This document shows positions 57,270 through 63,576 of a stretch of DNA of 64,000 bases, one piece after another (within the stretch, counting starts at the first letter, position 1; each line of letters starts with the position of its first letter). The notes below the pieces were generated by a model. That model was not told the origin of the DNA. It saw only the letters and a list, made by a program, of their open reading frames with translations, and made no database searches. Origin of the DNA: a virus; IMG/VR virus record IMGVR_UViG_3300018080_000002, positions 1-64,000 of that record, one strand, 5' to 3'. The position numbers were made by a program, and so were the translations under genes.

Positions 57270-57755
57270 GAAATGTATGTAAAGTTCGTTTTCGTACTCG
57301 TATGTTCCGTATTTTTGTTAGGTAGTAAGATCCCGAATAGAAAACCGGATGTTGTTTCACAAAGAGCTAAAATTTCTGACTACTATATTTATGATAAAAA
57401 ATCTCGGAAATGGATCTGGAAACCAGATTACTATGCTGCCGTTAGAAAAAAAATGGCTAAAAATAGGAAAAAATATCGGAAATTGCAGGCAAAAAAGAAA
57501 CCAGTTATCAAGAAAAAGCGAAAAGTTGAGCCGTTCATATATAGAGATGATCCTGTTATACAATACATATTAAAATAGTTGACTCCAATTTGCTTATCGA
57601 TTACAAGGGTATGGTCTATTGAACTTGTAGGACAATGGACGACTGGTATCTGAATGACACAGCTTCGAGAGTTTCACTCTTTTTTTGTCATTTAGATGCC
57701 AGCCTGCTTGTGTTTTGATGTTTGATGTATTGCGTACTTAAAACCGTTCAAAAAC

Positions 57756-57825
57756 GGTAGCGAGATGTAAGTGAGGGCTACTTCGGCCATTATGAAATTC
57801 CCCTTGCTGATTTGTTTCCGCTATC
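57756..57825 (+). ncRNA. YrlA-type Y RNA unit 1 (scaffold only)
   Basis: GGTAGCG/CGCTATC stem, AGATGTA..CTACTTCG..TGTTTC shared motifs, inner stem AGTGAGGG/CCCTTGCT. Confidence 0.6.
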
Positions 57826-57838
57826 ATAGTATTTGTAC

Positions 57839-57950
57839 TGACGAGATGTATGTGAGAGTTACTTCGTAAGTTCGACTCTTATCCCTCCCTCCATTCCATT
57901 ACGGGGGGGTTGTCCAGTGGGGACATTTCTCTTACAGTCTGTTTCCGTCA
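57839..57950 (+). ncRNA. YrlA-type Y RNA unit 2 (circularly permuted tRNA-like module)
   Basis: Same scaffold; payload order is T arm (TTCGACT), closed acceptor-like stem, D-like arm. Confidence 0.7.
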
Positions 57951-57966
57951 TCAATCAGGTAAAATT

Positions 57967-58078
57967 TGCAGAGTAGTGTAGGTTAGAGATACTTCGTGTA
58001 ATGGTTACACATCTGACTCGAAATCGGACGTAGCGGTTCAAATCCGCAGTTTTCCTCTTACTGATTGTTCTCTCTGCA
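57967..58078 (+). ncRNA. YrlA-type Y RNA unit 3 (D-anticodon-T payload)
   Basis: TGCAGAG/CTCTGCA stem; D arm, anticodon arm TCTGA-CTCGAAA-TCGGA, T arm TTCAAAT; no acceptor stem. Confidence 0.7.
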
Positions 58079-58092
58079 TTAACGATATTTGA

Positions 58093-58230
58093 TATAGGCG
58101 CAGTGTAGATTATGCTTACTTCGCATTGAAAGCGGCGGGTCGTTGGTTCGAGTCCAACTCTGGGGGTTTCCCCAGATAGCTCAGTTGGTAGAGCAGCTTC
58201 GTATGGCATTATTGATTGTTCTCGTCTATA
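58093..58230 (+). ncRNA. YrlA-type Y RNA unit 4 (circularly permuted tRNA-like module)
   Basis: GTTGGTTCGAGTCCAAC, then TCTGGGG/CCCCAGA closed stem, then TAGCTCAGTTGGTAGAGC, all inside the scaffold. Confidence 0.8.
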
Positions 58231-58247
58231 CTAATTTTGCTGATAAT

Positions 58248-58387
58248 GAGAGCGTGATGTAGATTATAGACTTCCTTCGCATTTTAGCTCACTTGGTAGA
58301 GCACAAAAGTTAGAATTTTGAGGTAGCGGGTTCAATCCCCGCAAATGTGACCATTAGGTCGGGTCTTATTCGCCTGTTTCCGCTCTT
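58248..58387 (+). ncRNA. YrlA-type Y RNA unit 5 enclosing a complete tRNA-like cloverleaf
   Basis: GAGAGCG/CGCTCTT stem; cloverleaf at 58278-58353 with anticodon loop GTTAGAA and an ACCA end. Confidence 0.7.
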
Positions 58388-58407
58388 TTAATACGTTAGG
58401 TGATATT

Positions 58408-59127
58408 ATGCTTGTTGTTGATCAGAGTCAGTTTGATAGATTTTTTTCCATCCTAGAAAAACCCGAAAAAGATGAAGTATATTTTGTGTCTCTGTCAGCC
58501 AGAAACAAGTATTTGACTGATGAAGAACGCCAACGCTTTCGCCTTGGCAAAACGGAGATGTTTGGTCGGACCACTATCAAGGATTTTAACGATCTTCCAT
58601 ATATCGTGCGGAAGCTAGAGGGGTTCCTTGGCGCATATCGCACCAGGAGCGGTTTAGAGATCCCTGAGCAAGCGAGAGTGGTTTACATCAATGTCAACCC
58701 ATCCTCAACAATTAAGGCGTATACAGCCTTGACTAAGGATCTTAATGACGCTTTATTTCGTTGTCATCTCGGCACTTGTGATTACTCGATGTTCAAGTCT
58801 ATTGAGCGCAGGATTTTGAATCATGTCCAGAGATCCAGATCTCGGCAGGTTTTCGTAGATATTGATTTTGATAACGTATCGGAAACGCTTGTTAAGGTGT
58901 TTAGAGGTCGTATTAGAGATACCGAGAATTACTTGATACGAACGAAATCAGGTGTTCATGTTTTGATCAAAAAAGAGACTTTAACGAAAGATATCAAGCT
59001 TGGTGTGATCATTGAGAATTTCAATGATGAAGCTAAAACGAGCGGTGGAGAGGTCGAGATAAACCAGAACCAGATGGTTCCTATGCCGGGAACAATGCAA
59101 GCTGGTCATTTGGTTACGATCGAGTAA
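58408..59127 (+). CDS. Hypothetical protein with AEP/primase-like motifs
   Basis: VFVDIDFD and IRTKSGVHVLI resemble AEP motifs I and II. Confidence 0.4.
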   Translation: MLVVDQSQFDRFFSILEKPEKDEVYFVSLSARNKYLTDEERQRFRLGKTEMFGRTTIKDFNDLPYIVRKLEGFLGAYRTRSGLEIPEQARVVYINVNPSSTIKAYTALTKDLNDALFRCHLGTCDYSMFKSIERRILNHVQRSRSRQVFVDIDFDNVSETLVKVFRGRIRDTENYLIRTKSGVHVLIKKETLTKDIKLGVIIENFNDEAKTSGGEVEINQNQMVPMPGTMQAGHLVTIE

Positions 59128-59223
59128 TATCTGTCTGAAGAAACTAGAAAATCCCTAAAATACCTTATTTGACTGTTTTGTGGTATAATATAGCCAGAAA
59201 CCATTCCAAAAGGAGGGCTGGCT

Positions 59224-60084
59224 ATGTTTAGATTAGCAATCATAGCTTTGTCGTTTTGCCTCTCCTGCTCGATGTTTGCCCGTACAAATGTTAAGACGTT
59301 CATGCCTGAAAATGACTTACATTTAGAGGATGATCTTTTTTCTCTATATGGTACTTCCGAACAAGAATTTTATGACGTTATCGAGGATGCTGAGAGGGTA
59401 TTTGCTCCTATCGTAGAAAGGCTTGGGGGTAGATTGTATATCTATAAAAAGTGGTATGATAGCACTGTTAATGCAATGACTTATAGACAAGGAGATTGGT
59501 GGATCATTGAAATGTATGGTGGTTTGGCTCGTAGACGAGAAATAACTAGAGATGGTTTTAACATGGTTCTTTGTCATGAGTTTGGTCATCAACTTGGAGG
59601 ATTCCCTTTCGTTCAAGATTGGGCTGCGGCTGAAGGTCAATCGGATTATTATGCGACTCATGCGTGTGCTAAACTGCTTTGGGCTAATGACGACAATTCT
59701 TGGACAAGACGCCAAATTCCCGCTTTTCCGAAGGGATTATGTGATAGGACTTGGAAGTCTCAAGCTGATCGTGATCTGTGCTACAGGAGCATGTTAGCGA
59801 GTAAATCGACAAATGATTTGCTGGCTGTTTTGAGTGGAGAGAGGGTTAATTATAATACGCCAGATCGATCTGTGGTTAGACGGACGAATACCAGTTATCC
59901 GAGAACTACTCAGTGTAGGCTGGATACCATGATGGCGGGAAGTGTCTGTGTAGCTCGCTGGAATCATGGAAGAATCCCGTCAACTGAAAGGAGTTCAGTT
60001 TATTATTTGTGTTCTACGGCTAGAGGTTATAGTATGGGGGTTAGACCGCGTTGTTGGTTTGCTCCTAGAATTGGGTTGCATTAG
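59224..60084 (+). CDS. Exported zinc metalloprotease
   Basis: Signal peptide or lipobox, VNA, GGLARR, CHEFGH (HExxH), EGQSDYYA, Cys-rich C-terminus. Confidence 0.75.
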   Translation: MFRLAIIALSFCLSCSMFARTNVKTFMPENDLHLEDDLFSLYGTSEQEFYDVIEDAERVFAPIVERLGGRLYIYKKWYDSTVNAMTYRQGDWWIIEMYGGLARRREITRDGFNMVLCHEFGHQLGGFPFVQDWAAAEGQSDYYATHACAKLLWANDDNSWTRRQIPAFPKGLCDRTWKSQADRDLCYRSMLASKSTNDLLAVLSGERVNYNTPDRSVVRRTNTSYPRTTQCRLDTMMAGSVCVARWNHGRIPSTERSSVYYLCSTARGYSMGVRPRCWFAPRIGLH

Positions 60085-60154
60085 TATGAGTGATGTTGTA
60101 TATCAACAAATTATAAGGTTGATCTTGTAAGAGAGGATTATTCGCATGTTTTTT

Positions 60155-60270
60155 TTAGCACCACAAAAGCCAGAGATTAATGGTCATCAAGATTGGTACG
60201 ATGATCCGTAGGTGCTAATAAATAAAGTTTTCCCAACGCCTTAGCACCAAAAAGCTGAGGCGTTTTTTTT
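60155..60270 (+). promoter_or_regulatory. Terminator/antiterminator-like leader of the Ro60 gene
   Basis: AACGCCTTAGC/GCTGAGGCGTT plus T-run; GGTGCTAA is complementary to two copies of TTAGCACC. Confidence 0.5.
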
Positions 60271-60295
60271 ATCCCGTATTTTTCGGAGGTGTAAG

Positions 60296-61876
60296 GTGTC
60301 AAGGTTTAATTCAACAGCAACTAAGGGGGTTCAGACTGTAAAAAATCACGGTGGAGCTGATTCGTACAAACTATCCAAGGAAGTAGAATTGTATTCGGTT
60401 GTTTGCAATAGTTTGATAACGGACAAGTATTACGAGAGTGGAGATAGTCAGCTCGCTAGAATCATAGAGTTGGTAAAAGACTGCGATCCAGTTTTTGTCG
60501 CTAACTTGGCATCCTATGCGCGTAACGAAATGAATTTGAGGACGGTTCCTGTGGTCTTGAGTACGTTGTTATGTAGGAATGTGGGTGGATCTGTAGCCAA
60601 AGATGCGGTTTTCAGGACGGTAAAACGTGCTGATGAAATCACTGAGGTTCTTGGTTATTTCGCTCAATTAAACAAAGACAATTGGAAAAAGATTAGCGAA
60701 AAAGGCCATATCAAGACTAAGAAAATGTCGAAATACTCTCACTCTTTAAAGAGAGGTATTGCGAAGGTATTTGAGTCTGGAAGGTTCGATCGATACCAAT
60801 TTTCTAAGTATAACAGGCAACGAGAATTTTCGTTCAAAGATGCTTTGTTTCTTTGCAATCCTAAGCCTCAGAACGATGAGATGGCTGAACTATTCAAGTT
60901 GATTGCGAGTGATGAATTGGGGTCTGCTGATACTTGGGAAGCTAAACAATCGGCTCTAGGTCAGGAGAATAAGGAGAAATCGGAGGATGAGGCGAAGGTA
61001 TCCAAGCTAGAGGTTTGGAAAGAGATGATTGCGAACAAAAAGCTTGGACACATGGCTTTGCTGAGAAACCTCAACAACATCCTTAAATGTAAGCCTGACT
61101 CTGCTTTTATGGATGATGTATGTCGAGAGCTGGTTCGTGGTGCTAAGAAAAGTAAGCAGTTTCCTTTTAGGTACTGGAGTGCCTATAAGACATTACAGAA
61201 AGATCATGGTCATCACTCAGATCCATTTCTGTTTCAGAAAGTATCTGATGCTCTGGAGCAGGCGATTAGGGATAGTATCAAGAGTATGAGTAAGTTTGAT
61301 GGAAATACTTTGATTGCCTGTGACGTTTCGGGATCGATGGTTACACCTGTTTCAGATAAGTCGATCATTCAAAATATCGATATAGGTTTGGTTCTTGGTT
61401 GTTTGTTAAAAAACGTTCAGAAACTAAATACTATTTTAGGTGTTTTCGGTGACGAATTTAAGATCATTACAGGTATCGGTAATGGGGTTTTGGCTGATGT
61501 CAGGAGTTCATTTGACTGGTCTCATAAAGTCGGTTGGTCGACTATGGGATACAAGGTCATTGAATACCTGAACAAAAGAAATTTGGATGTGAATCAGGTT
61601 CTTGTTTTCACTGACTGTCAGGTTTATGGATCTGCTGGAAATGGATACTACAGCAATGGTAATGAGATGGAGAGACAGTGGAGTATTTACAAGAGCAAGC
61701 ATCCTAATGCAAAGCTCTATATGTTCGATCTTTCTGGATATGGAAACGTGCCTCTAAGATTGGACAAAGGCGATGTTATTCATGTCGCTGGCTGGTCCGA
61801 TAGGATCTTTGAGGCGGTTGAGTATCTAAGAAAGGGATCTGATGCAGTAGATATGATTATGAACTATACTAGGTAA
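60296..61876 (+). CDS. rsr: Ro60/Rsr TROVE-domain RNA-binding protein
   Basis: YARNEMNLRTVP, RADE, KYNR, TWE, MALLRNL, QFPFRY, vWA MIDAS motif CDVSGSM, FTDCQ, GWSD. Confidence 0.9.
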   Translation: MSRFNSTATKGVQTVKNHGGADSYKLSKEVELYSVVCNSLITDKYYESGDSQLARIIELVKDCDPVFVANLASYARNEMNLRTVPVVLSTLLCRNVGGSVAKDAVFRTVKRADEITEVLGYFAQLNKDNWKKISEKGHIKTKKMSKYSHSLKRGIAKVFESGRFDRYQFSKYNRQREFSFKDALFLCNPKPQNDEMAELFKLIASDELGSADTWEAKQSALGQENKEKSEDEAKVSKLEVWKEMIANKKLGHMALLRNLNNILKCKPDSAFMDDVCRELVRGAKKSKQFPFRYWSAYKTLQKDHGHHSDPFLFQKVSDALEQAIRDSIKSMSKFDGNTLIACDVSGSMVTPVSDKSIIQNIDIGLVLGCLLKNVQKLNTILGVFGDEFKIITGIGNGVLADVRSSFDWSHKVGWSTMGYKVIEYLNKRNLDVNQVLVFTDCQVYGSAGNGYYSNGNEMERQWSIYKSKHPNAKLYMFDLSGYGNVPLRLDKGDVIHVAGWSDRIFEAVEYLRKGSDAVDMIMNYTR

Positions 61877-61878
61877 AT

Positions 61879-61916
61879 ATAGCGACGATGTTAGAACATA
61901 GCATTGTCGCTATTTT
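61879..61916 (+). terminator. Hairpin after the Ro60 gene
   Basis: ATAGCGACGATG/CATTGTCGCTAT followed by TTT. Confidence 0.5.
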
Positions 61917-62217: not shown

Positions 62218-62287
62218 GGGGCATCCTGTAGACGAGGTAACGCTCAAGTACGGGGGGATGTTGCGGGTTCGATCCCCGTGTGCTCCA
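62218..62287 (+). ncRNA. tRNA-like element with a G3-U70 acceptor stem and no D arm
   Basis: GGGGCAT/GTGCTCC-A acceptor; T arm GCGGG-TTCGATC-CCCGT; non-canonical middle. Confidence 0.5.
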
Positions 62288-63413: not shown

Positions 63414-63487
63414 GGCTCAGTATCCCAATTGGTAGAGGAAGCTGGCTTAGACCCAGTTGGTTGTCAGTTCGAGTCTGACCTGAGCTA
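63414..63487 (+). tRNA. tRNA-Leu(TAG), short variable loop
   Basis: GCTGG-CTTAGAC-CCAGT. Confidence 0.8.
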
Positions 63488-63497
63488 CTTGTTTTTT

Positions 63498-63572
63498 GGT
63501 CCCGTAGCCCAACTTGGTAGAGGCAATGGATTTAAAATCCATGAGTTATCAGTTCAAATCTGATCGGGACTA
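63498..63572 (+). tRNA. tRNA-Leu(TAA), short variable loop
   Basis: ATGGA-TTTAAAA-TCCAT. Confidence 0.8.
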
Positions 63573-63576
63573 CTCT

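What the first reader, a model, noticed from the sequence alone, without database searches (positions are those of the whole stretch)
57756..58387. Five tandem Y-RNA scaffolds, carrying four different payload topologies
Seen: five units share a covarying closing stem, a GATGTA/AGTGTA motif, an inner stem, T(A/C)CTTCG, a payload and TGTTTC/TGTTCT. The payloads are: none (unit 1); circularly permuted T arm, closed acceptor, D arm (units 2 and 4); D, anticodon, T arms with no acceptor (unit 3); and a full cloverleaf (unit 5). Established: bacterial YrlA RNAs combine a Ro60-binding stem with a permuted tRNA-like module and lie near rsr; a Ro60 gene is ~1.9 kb downstream here. Inference: a modular panel of Ro60-tethered tRNA mimics, possibly decoys for anticodon nucleases or adaptors for RNA repair and decay enzymes.
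Basis: partly seen in the sequence, partly recalled or inferred. Interest (0 to 1): 0.8.

Follow-up and report, generated by a model that had tools for sequence, protein, structure and literature searches.

The report
Five phage Y RNAs beside Ro60
A 157-kb phage carries, 1.9 kb upstream of its Ro60 gene, five tandem genes for Y RNAs that share one Ro60-type stem but carry different tRNA-shaped inserts, one of them a complete tRNA; the RNA class is known, but some of these inserts appear undescribed.

Summary
Five units lie at 57756-57825, 57837-57952, 57967-58078, 58094-58229 and 58248-58387 (+). Each has a covarying closing stem, a conserved internal loop (RUGUA / GNYUGUUYY), a covarying inner stem and a YACUUCG motif.

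A covariance model built mostly from other phages finds exactly these five in the 64-kb window, and nothing else.

The scaffold is a diverged form of the Ro60-binding module of YrlA (Rfam RF02553). The same scaffold occurs 240 times beside Ro60 genes in 84 other viral contigs, 239 of them on the Ro60 strand. It also occurs beside Bacteroidota Ro60 genes. Arrays of 4-11 units are common there, so five in tandem is typical.

Payloads:
- Unit 1 has none.
- Units 2 and 4 are YrlA-type: T arm, closed acceptor, D arm.
- Unit 3 has D, anticodon and T arms on a short pseudo-acceptor helix, as in Deinococcus Yrn1.
- Unit 5 is a full class-I tRNA with anticodon UAG, A73 and an encoded CCA.

Scaffold-nested complete tRNAs recur in two distant phage contigs. 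Published YrlA descriptions that I could read say YrlA lacks an anticodon loop and a free CCA end.

Verdict: real Y RNA genes, and a new variant of a known kind.

The parts
57756..57825 (+). Unit 1: minimal Y RNA, scaffold only. Closing stem 57756-57762/57819-57825. Loops AGAUGUA 57763-57769 and GAUUUGUUUC 57809-57818. Inner stem 57770-57777/57801-57808. CUACUUCG 57778-57785. 15-nt apical region.
   Evidence: R1 56.8 bits; R2 49.6 bits; MFE fold gives the scaffold, z -3.2; coordinates
57837..57952 (+). Unit 2: YrlA-type Y RNA. Scaffold: 5-bp closing stem 57839-57843/57946-57950 and inner stem 57851-57858/57929-57936. Payload: T arm 57867-57881; acceptor-like hairpin CCCUCCC 57883-57889 / GGGGGGG 57903-57909, whose 13-nt loop begins U-CCA; D arm 57912-57924.
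   Evidence: R2 46.0 bits, E 4e-10; MFE fold recovers scaffold plus three hairpins; coordinates
57967..58078 (+). Unit 3: scaffold carrying a payload in tRNA order. D arm 57996-58010. Anticodon arm 58012-58028 with loop CUCGAAA. T arm 58033-58047. The short pseudo-acceptor AUACU/AGUUU is continuous with the inner stem, so there are no free ends.
   Evidence: R2 58.3 bits; Rfam tRNA 35.7 bits with two mismatched acceptor pairs; ARAGORN anticodon cga; fold
58094..58229 (+). Unit 4: canonical YrlA-type Y RNA. V hairpin 58121-58135. T arm 58142-58158. Closed acceptor hairpin 58159-58176 with GUUU loop. D arm 58179-58194.
   Evidence: Rfam YrlA 39.4 bits on model positions 24-84, E 6e-7; R2 45.2 bits although not in the training set
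58248..58387 (+). Unit 5: scaffold enclosing a complete class-I tRNA at 58278-58353. The tRNA has a 7-bp acceptor stem, anticodon loop GUUAGAA (UAG), A73 and an encoded CCA. Closing stem 58248-58254/58381-58387. Inner stem 58262-58271/58363-58371 with a 2-nt bulge. The tRNA starts inside the UUCCUUCG motif.
   Evidence: Rfam tRNA 59.7 bits; ARAGORN; R2 35.8 bits, E 3e-7, not in the training set; same arrangement in L083 854-991 and L036 6877-7011
60296..61876 (+). Ro60/Rsr (TROVE) protein gene, 526 aa: the presumed protein partner of the five RNAs.
   Evidence: Pfam TROVE 5.8e-18; PHROG 850 'RNA-binding protein' 6e-42; full-length match to Thermus phage phiLo Ro60 structures 9KOP/9L5Y, E 5e-30, and to Xenopus Ro60 1YVP

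Best explanation
The stretch encodes five Y RNAs of the YrlA class, probably made as one precursor and cut into units.

Shared module: each RNA has a two-helix stem whose conserved internal loop (5' RUGUA, 3' GNYUGUUYY) is the docking site for the phage's own Ro60 ring protein. That protein is encoded 1.9 kb downstream on the same strand.

Variable module: the distal end is exchangeable.
- Nothing (unit 1), which would act only as a lid on Ro60.
- A permuted tRNA shape without anticodon loop or free end (units 2 and 4).
- A tRNA shape fused to the stem through its acceptor end, displaying an anticodon arm (unit 3).
- A whole tRNA (unit 5).

By analogy with Deinococcus and Salmonella Y RNAs and with Thermus phage phiLo, the tRNA-shaped ends would tether Ro60 to proteins that grip tRNA-like RNA. 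Candidates are PNPase, RNase P, and CCA-adding or modification enzymes. The phage would thereby make several differently targeted Ro60 particles for RNA surveillance or decay during infection.

Shown here: the scaffold, its covariation, its kinship with YrlA, its strict linkage to Ro60, and the payload shapes. Inferred: transcription, processing, Ro60 binding and tethering.
For: 1. Scaffold covariation:
- Five window units: 92% paired, 11 of 15 pairs compensatory, 0 of 500 shuffles.
- 61 distinct family members: 92.1% paired, 15 of 15 pairs compensatory, slid controls 43-51%.
- 150 members: 92.6% paired, slid controls 45-52%.

2. Linkage to Ro60:
- A model built only from the five window scaffolds finds 68 matches in 84 other viral Ro60 loci, all on the Ro60 strand. 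The median distance to the gene is 195 nt, and 57 of 68 lie within 1 kb.
- The family model gives 240 matches, 239 on the Ro60 strand.
- 58 of 58 matches beside cellular Ro60 genes, almost all Bacteroidota, are on the Ro60 strand.

3. Kinship with YrlA:
- The Rfam YrlA model aligns end to end with scaffolds of this type. In L005 its closing stem, 5-nt loop, inner stem and CUAC map onto the same parts.
- It covers units found by my models in L047, L041, L032, L060, L034 and L043.
- Unit 4 matches its tRNA-like core.

4. Protein partner: the Ro60 protein is full length and resembles phiLo Ro60. That protein binds two Y-like RNAs encoded upstream of it and joins host PNPase (PMC12135203).

5. Literature: Y RNAs are described as modular tethers (bioRxiv 10.1101/312249). 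YrlA-like RNAs lie within 4 kb of Ro60 on the same strand in 254 bacteria and 22 phages (PMC4201824).
Against: - No expression or binding data could be obtained.
- All Rfam YrlA scores are below the family's gathering score of 69. The best is 39.4 bits in the window and 53.5 bits in relatives.
- The published Ro60-contact motif GNCGAAN0-1G is not present as such. The window has GNUGUAG-like sequences.
- Two unrelated protein genes and a terminator-like hairpin (60235-60264) lie between the array and Ro60, whereas most relatives have the array directly adjacent.
- Units 3 and 5 would be expected substrates of RNase P and 3' trimming, so the mature forms may differ from the genes.
Confidence: 0.7

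Rival explanations
1. Processing cassette. The scaffold is mainly a leader-trailer stem of precursors. RNase P and 3' exonucleases release a free class-I tRNA (UAG) from unit 5, and perhaps cut units 2 and 3. Ro60 would act, if at all, as a chaperone or 3'-end gate during maturation. The functional product of unit 5 would then be an ordinary free tRNA.
For: - In all three scaffold-nested complete tRNAs the tRNA starts within two bases of the conserved CUUC: directly after it in L083 and L036, one base further on in window unit 5.
- CCA is encoded in two of the three.
- The tRNA scores as a normal tRNA, 59.7 bits, with all tertiary-interaction bases present.
- M. smegmatis YrlA is cleaved by RNase P in vitro and receives CCA in vivo (PMC4201824).
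- The acceptor-like loop of unit 2 starts U-CCA, and the same N-CCA recurs in L075, L064 and L060.
Against: - Only 3 of 278 plus-strand tRNAs in the viral loci sit in a scaffold. The phage's 15 ordinary tRNAs have none, so the stem is not needed for tRNA maturation.
- Most scaffolds carry no tRNA at all: 80 of 149 are short.
- After RNase P cleavage, the 15 scaffold pairs would still hold the two pieces together.
- The phage already has a separate tRNA with anticodon UAG at 63414-63488.
Confidence: 0.15
2. Decoy panel. The tRNA-shaped payloads are baits that soak up host tRNA-targeting defence enzymes (anticodon nucleases, CCA-end modifiers). Ro60 protects the bait or brings a nuclease to the trapped complex.
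For: - Units 3 and 5 display canonical 7-nt anticodon loops with U33.
- Scaffold-borne anticodon arms recur in other phages.
- The nested complete tRNAs in the window and in L083 both carry NAG (leucine) anticodons on class-I bodies.
- The locus sits in a phage tRNA island. By general knowledge, such islands often counter tRNA depletion.
Against: - Loop sequences at the anticodon position are not conserved among unit-3-like payloads and often lack U33.
- Most family members have no anticodon arm or no payload.
- The same scaffold family sits beside chromosomal Ro60 genes of Bacteroidota, where a counter-defence role is less obvious.
- No defence or anti-defence gene was recognised nearby.
Confidence: 0.1
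3. Not Ro60-related. The units are generic repeated hairpins (terminators, REP-like elements or decayed tRNA genes) that happen to lie near a TROVE gene.
For: No direct binding evidence; Rfam scores are below threshold; two terminator-like sites fall inside units 2 and 5 in a crude scan.
Against: - 239 of 240 and 58 of 58 family matches are on the Ro60 strand, next to the gene, in distantly related viral and cellular loci.
- Covariation is strong with conserved loop sequence.
- The motif occurs nowhere else in the 157-kb genome apart from one chance match.
Confidence: 0.03

Closest known systems
YrlA / YrlB Y RNAs (Rfam RF02553; Salmonella, Mycobacterium, many bacteria and 22 phages; Chen et al. 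2014, PMC4201824)
   Same: - 5'/3' terminal stem of two helices around a conserved internal loop.
- CUAC/UUAC after the inner stem.
- T arm, closed acceptor-like hairpin and D arm in permuted order (units 2 and 4).
- Optional long variable-arm hairpin.
- Encoded within 4 kb of Ro60 on the same strand, with several RNAs per locus.
   Different: - Scores stay below the Rfam threshold.
- The 5'-strand motif is GNUGUAG-like instead of GNCGAAN0-1G.
- Five units lie in tandem.
- Three of the five do not carry the YrlA payload: none, tRNA order with anticodon arm, and a whole tRNA with encoded CCA.
- Published YrlA is said to lack an anticodon loop and a free CCA end (10.1101/312249).
Deinococcus radiodurans Yrn1 (Y RNA that tethers Rsr to PNPase)
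   Same: Per Chen et al. 2014, the stem-loop between its D-like and T-like arms occupies the anticodon-arm position. The Ro60-binding stem therefore takes the acceptor's place, which is the topology of unit 3.
   Different: Yrn1 has a metazoan-like Ro60-binding helix and is judged to have arisen independently of YrlA. Unit 3 uses the YrlA-type scaffold. I made no sequence comparison with Yrn1.
Thermus phage phiLo Yrl1/Yrl2 with phiRo60 (NAR 2025, PMC12135203)
   Same: A phage-encoded Ro60 with Y-like RNAs encoded upstream on the same strand. The window's Ro60 matches phiRo60 over its full length (E 5e-30).
   Different: - Two RNAs, not five.
- They are described as stem-bulge-stem RNAs with a CGAA motif, and no tRNA modules are reported in the text I read.
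- The Ro60 proteins are only about 27% identical.
Circularly permuted tRNA genes and two-piece tmRNA
   Same: Unit 2 has the order T arm, 3' acceptor strand, N-CCA, linker, 5' acceptor strand, D arm. This is the gene order of a permuted tRNA.
   Different: The anticodon arm is replaced by the Y scaffold. No processing into two pieces was shown here. This resemblance rests on my own knowledge and was not tested.

Membership tests
YrlA (Rfam RF02553) | Score at or above the Rfam gathering threshold (69 bits) | tested here: not met
   The only match in the window is unit 4 at 39.4 bits, a partial match to model positions 24-84. Related phage units score 32-53.5 bits.
YrlA (Rfam RF02553) | Terminal stem of two helices separated by an internal loop, followed by CUAC (the Ro60-binding module) | tested here: met
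   All five units have it, with covariation. The Rfam model's stems map onto the same parts in L005.
YrlA (Rfam RF02553) | 5'-strand motif GNCGAAN0-1G (Chen et al. 2014) | tested here: not met
   No CGAA occurs in any 5' strand. The units read GCGAGAUGUA, ACGAGAUGUA, GAGUAGUGUA, GCGCAGUGUA and GCGUGAUGUA. Bacteroidota relatives read GYCGUAG, an intermediate form.
YrlA (Rfam RF02553) | tRNA-like effector module in the order T arm, closed acceptor-like hairpin, D arm | tested here: met
   Met for units 2 and 4. Not met for units 1, 3 and 5.
YrlA (Rfam RF02553) | Encoded within 4 kb of a Ro60 ortholog, on the same strand | tested here: met
   The array ends at 58387 and the TROVE gene starts at 60296, both on the + strand.
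Y RNA (functional definition) | Bound and stabilised by Ro60 in vivo | not testable with these tools
tRNA (Rfam RF00005), for the unit 5 payload | Cloverleaf above the gathering score, with conserved tertiary bases and a 7-nt anticodon loop | tested here: met
   59.7 bits against a threshold of 29. U8, A14, G18, G19, A21, U33, G53, T54, T55, C56, A58 and C61 are present. A73 and CCA are encoded.
tRNA-Leu (bacterial), for the unit 5 payload | Class II body with a long variable arm | tested here: not met
   It is 76 nt with a 5-nt variable loop AGGUA. The class II expectation for bacterial tRNA-Leu is from my own knowledge.

The most novel reading that the evidence does not exclude
The YrlA scaffold is a general display platform, and some phage Ro60 particles carry a complete tRNA body with an anticodon loop that stays tethered to Ro60. 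The window and L083 copies have NAG anticodons, A73 and an encoded CCA; the L036 copy has GCU and no encoded CCA. This would be a caged or bait tRNA, not an ordinary tRNA gene and not a YrlA-type mimic. The arrangement is conserved in at least three distant phage lineages (window unit 5, L083 854-991, L036 6877-7011). Alongside it are units that display only an anticodon arm. A single phage would thus field a graded panel of Ro60 RNPs, from lid-only to full tRNA.
Probability: 0.3. Interest if true: 0.8.

Novelty: new variant of a known kind. Interest (0 to 1): 0.6.

Why it matters
Y RNAs are the obligatory partners of Ro60 from bacteria to humans, yet what their variable ends recruit is largely unknown outside PNPase in Deinococcus.

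This locus, and the roughly 240 relatives found here, show a natural series in which one Ro60-binding stem carries nothing, a partial tRNA shape, an anticodon-displaying shape, or a whole tRNA. That series is a ready-made experiment for asking which tRNA features matter for the partner protein.

It also shows that standard annotation misses these RNAs, since every score is below the Rfam threshold. In addition, large phages often place Ro60 and long Y RNA arrays inside their tRNA islands. That placement points to a role in tRNA or RNA surveillance during infection.

If the nested tRNAs stay tethered to Ro60, that would be a kind of tRNA-containing RNP I found no description of.

Tried and rejected
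- Close relatives by DNA: megablast of 57600-61900 against cultured phages found nothing.
- Model R1 with filters off cannot span long payloads and split units 2-5. This was solved with R2.
- R1 found no scaffold beside the Ro60 genes of phage csAssE-Sib, Vibrio phage Va1 or crAss-like cr111_1, so no cultured model phage was identified.
- The two reviews on bacterial Y RNAs (PMC10870794, PMC6047535) are not held, and the supplements of Chen et al. 2014 are not held. My statement that nested tRNAs are undescribed therefore rests on the papers I could read.
- The two genes between the array and Ro60 have no Pfam family, only two weak PHROG matches of unknown function for the 239-aa protein (none for the 286-aa), and no significant PDB sequence match. 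The Atlas gave only leads: AEP-like for the 239-aa protein and M48-like metalloprotease for the 286-aa protein. Homologs of the 239-aa protein lie near Ro60 in only 2 of 84 loci, so I do not count either gene as part of the system.
- Host assignment to Bacteroidota was considered, because the nearest cellular Ro60 genes and the scaffold type point there. I left it open because 66% of the phage's ORFs have a Shine-Dalgarno-like motif, against 25% at random positions.
- A sixth unit upstream was considered. The 17-bp hairpin at 57643-57701 contains AGCUUCG but lacks the loop motifs and is not hit by either model.

Full report
**What is there**

The window is the first 64 kb of a 157,357-bp viral contig with direct terminal repeats. 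Between 57756 and 58387 on the + strand lie five units separated by spacers of 11-18 nt. Each unit is built from these parts, in order:
- a closing stem of 5-7 pairs;
- a 7-nt 5' loop ending in UGUA;
- an inner stem of 8-10 pairs;
- the motif YUACUUCG (UUCCUUCG in unit 5);
- a payload;
- the 3' strand of the inner stem;
- a 9-10-nt loop GNYUGUUYY;
- the 3' strand of the closing stem.

The 5' motif pattern occurs five times here and only once more, by chance, in the whole 157-kb genome on both strands.

**Is the scaffold more than chance?**

I aligned the five scaffolds with the payloads removed (A3).
- 92% of cells pair, and 11 of 15 pairs carry changes on both sides.
- None of 500 shuffles reaches these values, and sliding the 3' partner drops pairing to 29-53%.

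A covariance model made from these five alone (R1) was run on 84 other viral contigs that encode a Ro60 relative.
- It gave 68 matches at E <= 1, all on the Ro60 strand.
- 51 lie upstream and 17 downstream of the gene. The median distance is 195 nt, and 57 of 68 lie within 1 kb.
- On the 61 distinct matches, 92.1% of cells pair and all 15 pairs show compensatory changes. Slid controls pair at 43-51%.

A second model built from those matches (R2) was trained on 68 sequences, only three of them from the window; units 4 and 5 were not among them.
- In the 84 viral loci it finds 240 matches at E <= 0.01, 239 on the Ro60 strand.
- The one exception lies beside a minus-strand YrlA match.
- On the best 150 matches, pairing is 92.6% against 45-52% for slid controls.

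**What family is it?**

Evidence that the scaffold is a diverged member of the YrlA lineage:
- The Rfam YrlA model (RF02553) has the same architecture: closing stem, short 5' loop, inner stem, CUAC, tRNA-like core, inner stem, 8-nt loop, closing stem.
- It aligns end to end with a unit of this type in L005 at 53.5 bits, part for part.
- It overlaps units in L047, L041, L032, L060, L034, L043 and L036.
- In the window it matches only the tRNA-like core of unit 4, at 39.4 bits.

Two membership tests fail:
- All scores are below the family's gathering score of 69.
- The published 5'-strand motif GNCGAAN0-1G (PMC4201824) is absent. The window reads GNUGUAG-like sequences.

Cellular relatives supply an intermediate form. 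I fetched 80 cellular Ro60 loci, almost all from Bacteroidota. R1 finds 58 scaffolds there, all on the Ro60 strand and mostly just downstream of the gene. Their motif reads GYCGUAG, which lies between the published motif and the window's.

The gene at 60296-61876 is a full-length Ro60. It matches the TROVE domain and PHROG 850. It also matches the solved Ro60 of Thermus phage phiLo over residues 15-519.

**The payloads**

- **Unit 1** has only about 15 nt between the motif and the inner stem.
- **Unit 2** has a 4-bp T arm and a 7-bp acceptor-like hairpin whose 13-nt loop starts U-CCA, followed by a D arm.
- **Unit 4** has a small V hairpin, a T arm, an acceptor-like hairpin closed by GUUU, and a D arm.

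Units 2 and 4 follow the YrlA order.

- **Unit 3** has a D arm, an anticodon arm with the canonical loop CUCGAAA, and a T arm. Its acceptor position is taken by AUACU/AGUUU stacked on the scaffold, so the RNA has no free acceptor end.

Chen et al. 2014 describe this orientation for Deinococcus Yrn1.

- **Unit 5** encloses a 76-nt cloverleaf at 58278-58353. It scores 59.7 bits as a tRNA and has all the usual tertiary bases. It has a 7-bp acceptor stem, anticodon UAG, A73 and an encoded CCA, but a class-I body.

**How unusual is this?**

Array size is not unusual. By my count of the rows:
- L043 has 11 units in the 1.9 kb before its Ro60 gene.
- L034 and L037 have 8 each.
- L009 has 7.
- L036, L060 and L078 have 6 each.
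- Several others have 4-5.

Payload classes among the 149 best plus-strand matches (rough classification):

| Payload class | Count |
|---|---|
| Short, no T or D arm found | 80 |
| T then D arm (YrlA order) | 36 |
| T arm only | 20 |
| Long, no arm recognised | 9 |
| D then T arm (tRNA order) | 4 |

Complete tRNAs beginning within two bases of the scaffold's CUUC are rare but recurrent. They make up 3 of 278 plus-strand tRNAs in the viral loci:
- window unit 5 (anticodon UAG);
- L083 883-958 (anticodon CAG, A73, CCA; 60.4 bits);
- L036 6906-6978 (anticodon GCU; 45.2 bits).

The Ro60 proteins of L083 and L036 are only about 28-31% identical to the window's, so this arrangement is conserved or recurrent across distant phages.

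Unit-3-like payloads occur in L083 724-839, L043 165-293 and L049 4604-4739. Their anticodon-position loops are not conserved and often lack U33.

An N-CCA right after the 3' acceptor strand, as in unit 2, also occurs in L075, L064 and L060.

**What is known**

- Y RNAs are described as modular, with a Ro60-binding stem and an effector end (10.1101/312249).
- YrlA-like RNAs were predicted near Ro60 in 254 bacteria and 22 phages. M. smegmatis YrlA is cut by RNase P in vitro and receives CCA in vivo (PMC4201824).
- Salmonella YrlA is stated to lack an anticodon loop and a free CCA end (10.1101/312249).
- The Ro60 of Thermus phage phiLo binds two upstream Y-like RNAs and joins host PNPase (PMC12135203).
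- A Listeria phage has three abundant RNAs upstream of an Rsr-like gene (PMC12282133).

I found no description of Y scaffolds that enclose a whole tRNA, or of long phage arrays with mixed payloads. However, two key reviews were not available to me.

**Mechanism**

Most likely (0.7), these are five Ro60-binding Y RNAs whose distal modules tether Ro60 to tRNA-recognising proteins. Unit 1 would act as a lid only. This rests on family membership and on analogy, not on data from this phage.

Three rivals remain:
- The scaffold serves as a processing stem that releases a free tRNA from unit 5 (0.15).
- The payloads are decoys for tRNA-targeting defences (0.10), which is weakened by the unconserved loops.
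- The repeats are unrelated to Ro60 (0.03), which is contradicted by the strand and distance statistics.

The first two rivals concern what the payloads do and are not exclusive of Ro60 binding.

**Limits**

- No expression, processing or binding evidence could be obtained.
- The host is unknown. The nearest cellular Ro60 genes and the scaffold type point to Bacteroidota, but the phage uses Shine-Dalgarno-like motifs before 66% of its ORFs.
- E-values from my models are rough, and the model-fitted alignments lean towards the structure. The slid controls and the strand bias are the independent checks.

Noticed in passing
window 57643-57701 (+): A perfect 17-bp hairpin (57643-57659 with 57685-57701). 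Its loop holds AGCUUCG and a small GAGAGU/ACUCUU hairpin followed by a U run. MFE -29.2 kcal/mol, z -5.5. It lies between the upstream ORF and unit 1. It could be a terminator, an RNase III site or a decayed unit. Neither scaffold model hits it.
   Followed up: partly
window 63414-63488 and 63498-63573 (+): Two tRNAs of the downstream array carry leucine anticodons (UAG, UAA) but are only 75-76 nt, so they have class-I bodies without the long variable arm expected of bacterial tRNA-Leu. Similar short tRNAs with Leu anticodons lie near Ro60 in cellular loci L112, L136, L158, L159 and L160.
   Followed up: partly
window 62218-62287 (+): A tRNA-like element between tRNA-Ile and tRNA-Asn has a T arm and acceptor-like ends but no normal D or anticodon arms. 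R1 gives only a weak 8.3-bit match at 62249-62280. Another first-stage note flagged it.
   Followed up: no
window 58408-59127 and 59224-60084 (+): Two genes of unknown function lie between the array and Ro60. The Atlas gives an AEP-like lead for the 239-aa protein (TM 0.62 to a cluster where 51% of members carry PF24387) and an M48-like metalloprotease lead for the 286-aa protein. Homologs of the 239-aa protein lie near Ro60 only in L086 and L066.
   Followed up: partly
window 60235-60264 (+): An 11-bp G+C-rich hairpin followed by a T run lies 30 nt before the Ro60 start codon. The array and Ro60 may therefore be separate transcription units, or the site may be regulated.
   Followed up: no
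L043 17-1892; L034 4136-4978; L037 2049-4225: Very long Y-scaffold arrays in other viral contigs: 11 units directly upstream of Ro60 in L043, and 8 each in L034 and L037.
   Followed up: partly
L036 3114-3471: A full-length tmRNA (160.9 bits) lies in a viral contig about 1.5 kb upstream of its Ro60 gene, along with tRNAs and six Y scaffolds.
   Followed up: no
L047, L050, L032, L060, L083 units (V hairpins): In typical family members, UACUUCG is the 5' strand of a 5-bp hairpin with a 7-nt loop shaped like an anticodon loop (CU-NNN-AA). The loop is most often CUGUUAA, which contains the U33-G34-U35 triplet. By my own knowledge, that triplet is what tRNA-guanine transglycosylase recognises.
   Followed up: no
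L160 4588-5243; L093 4520-5060: Chromosomal or MAG Bacteroidota Ro60 loci carry alternating Y scaffolds and tRNAs downstream of Ro60. ARAGORN miscalls one L093 Y unit as tRNA-Leu.
   Followed up: partly
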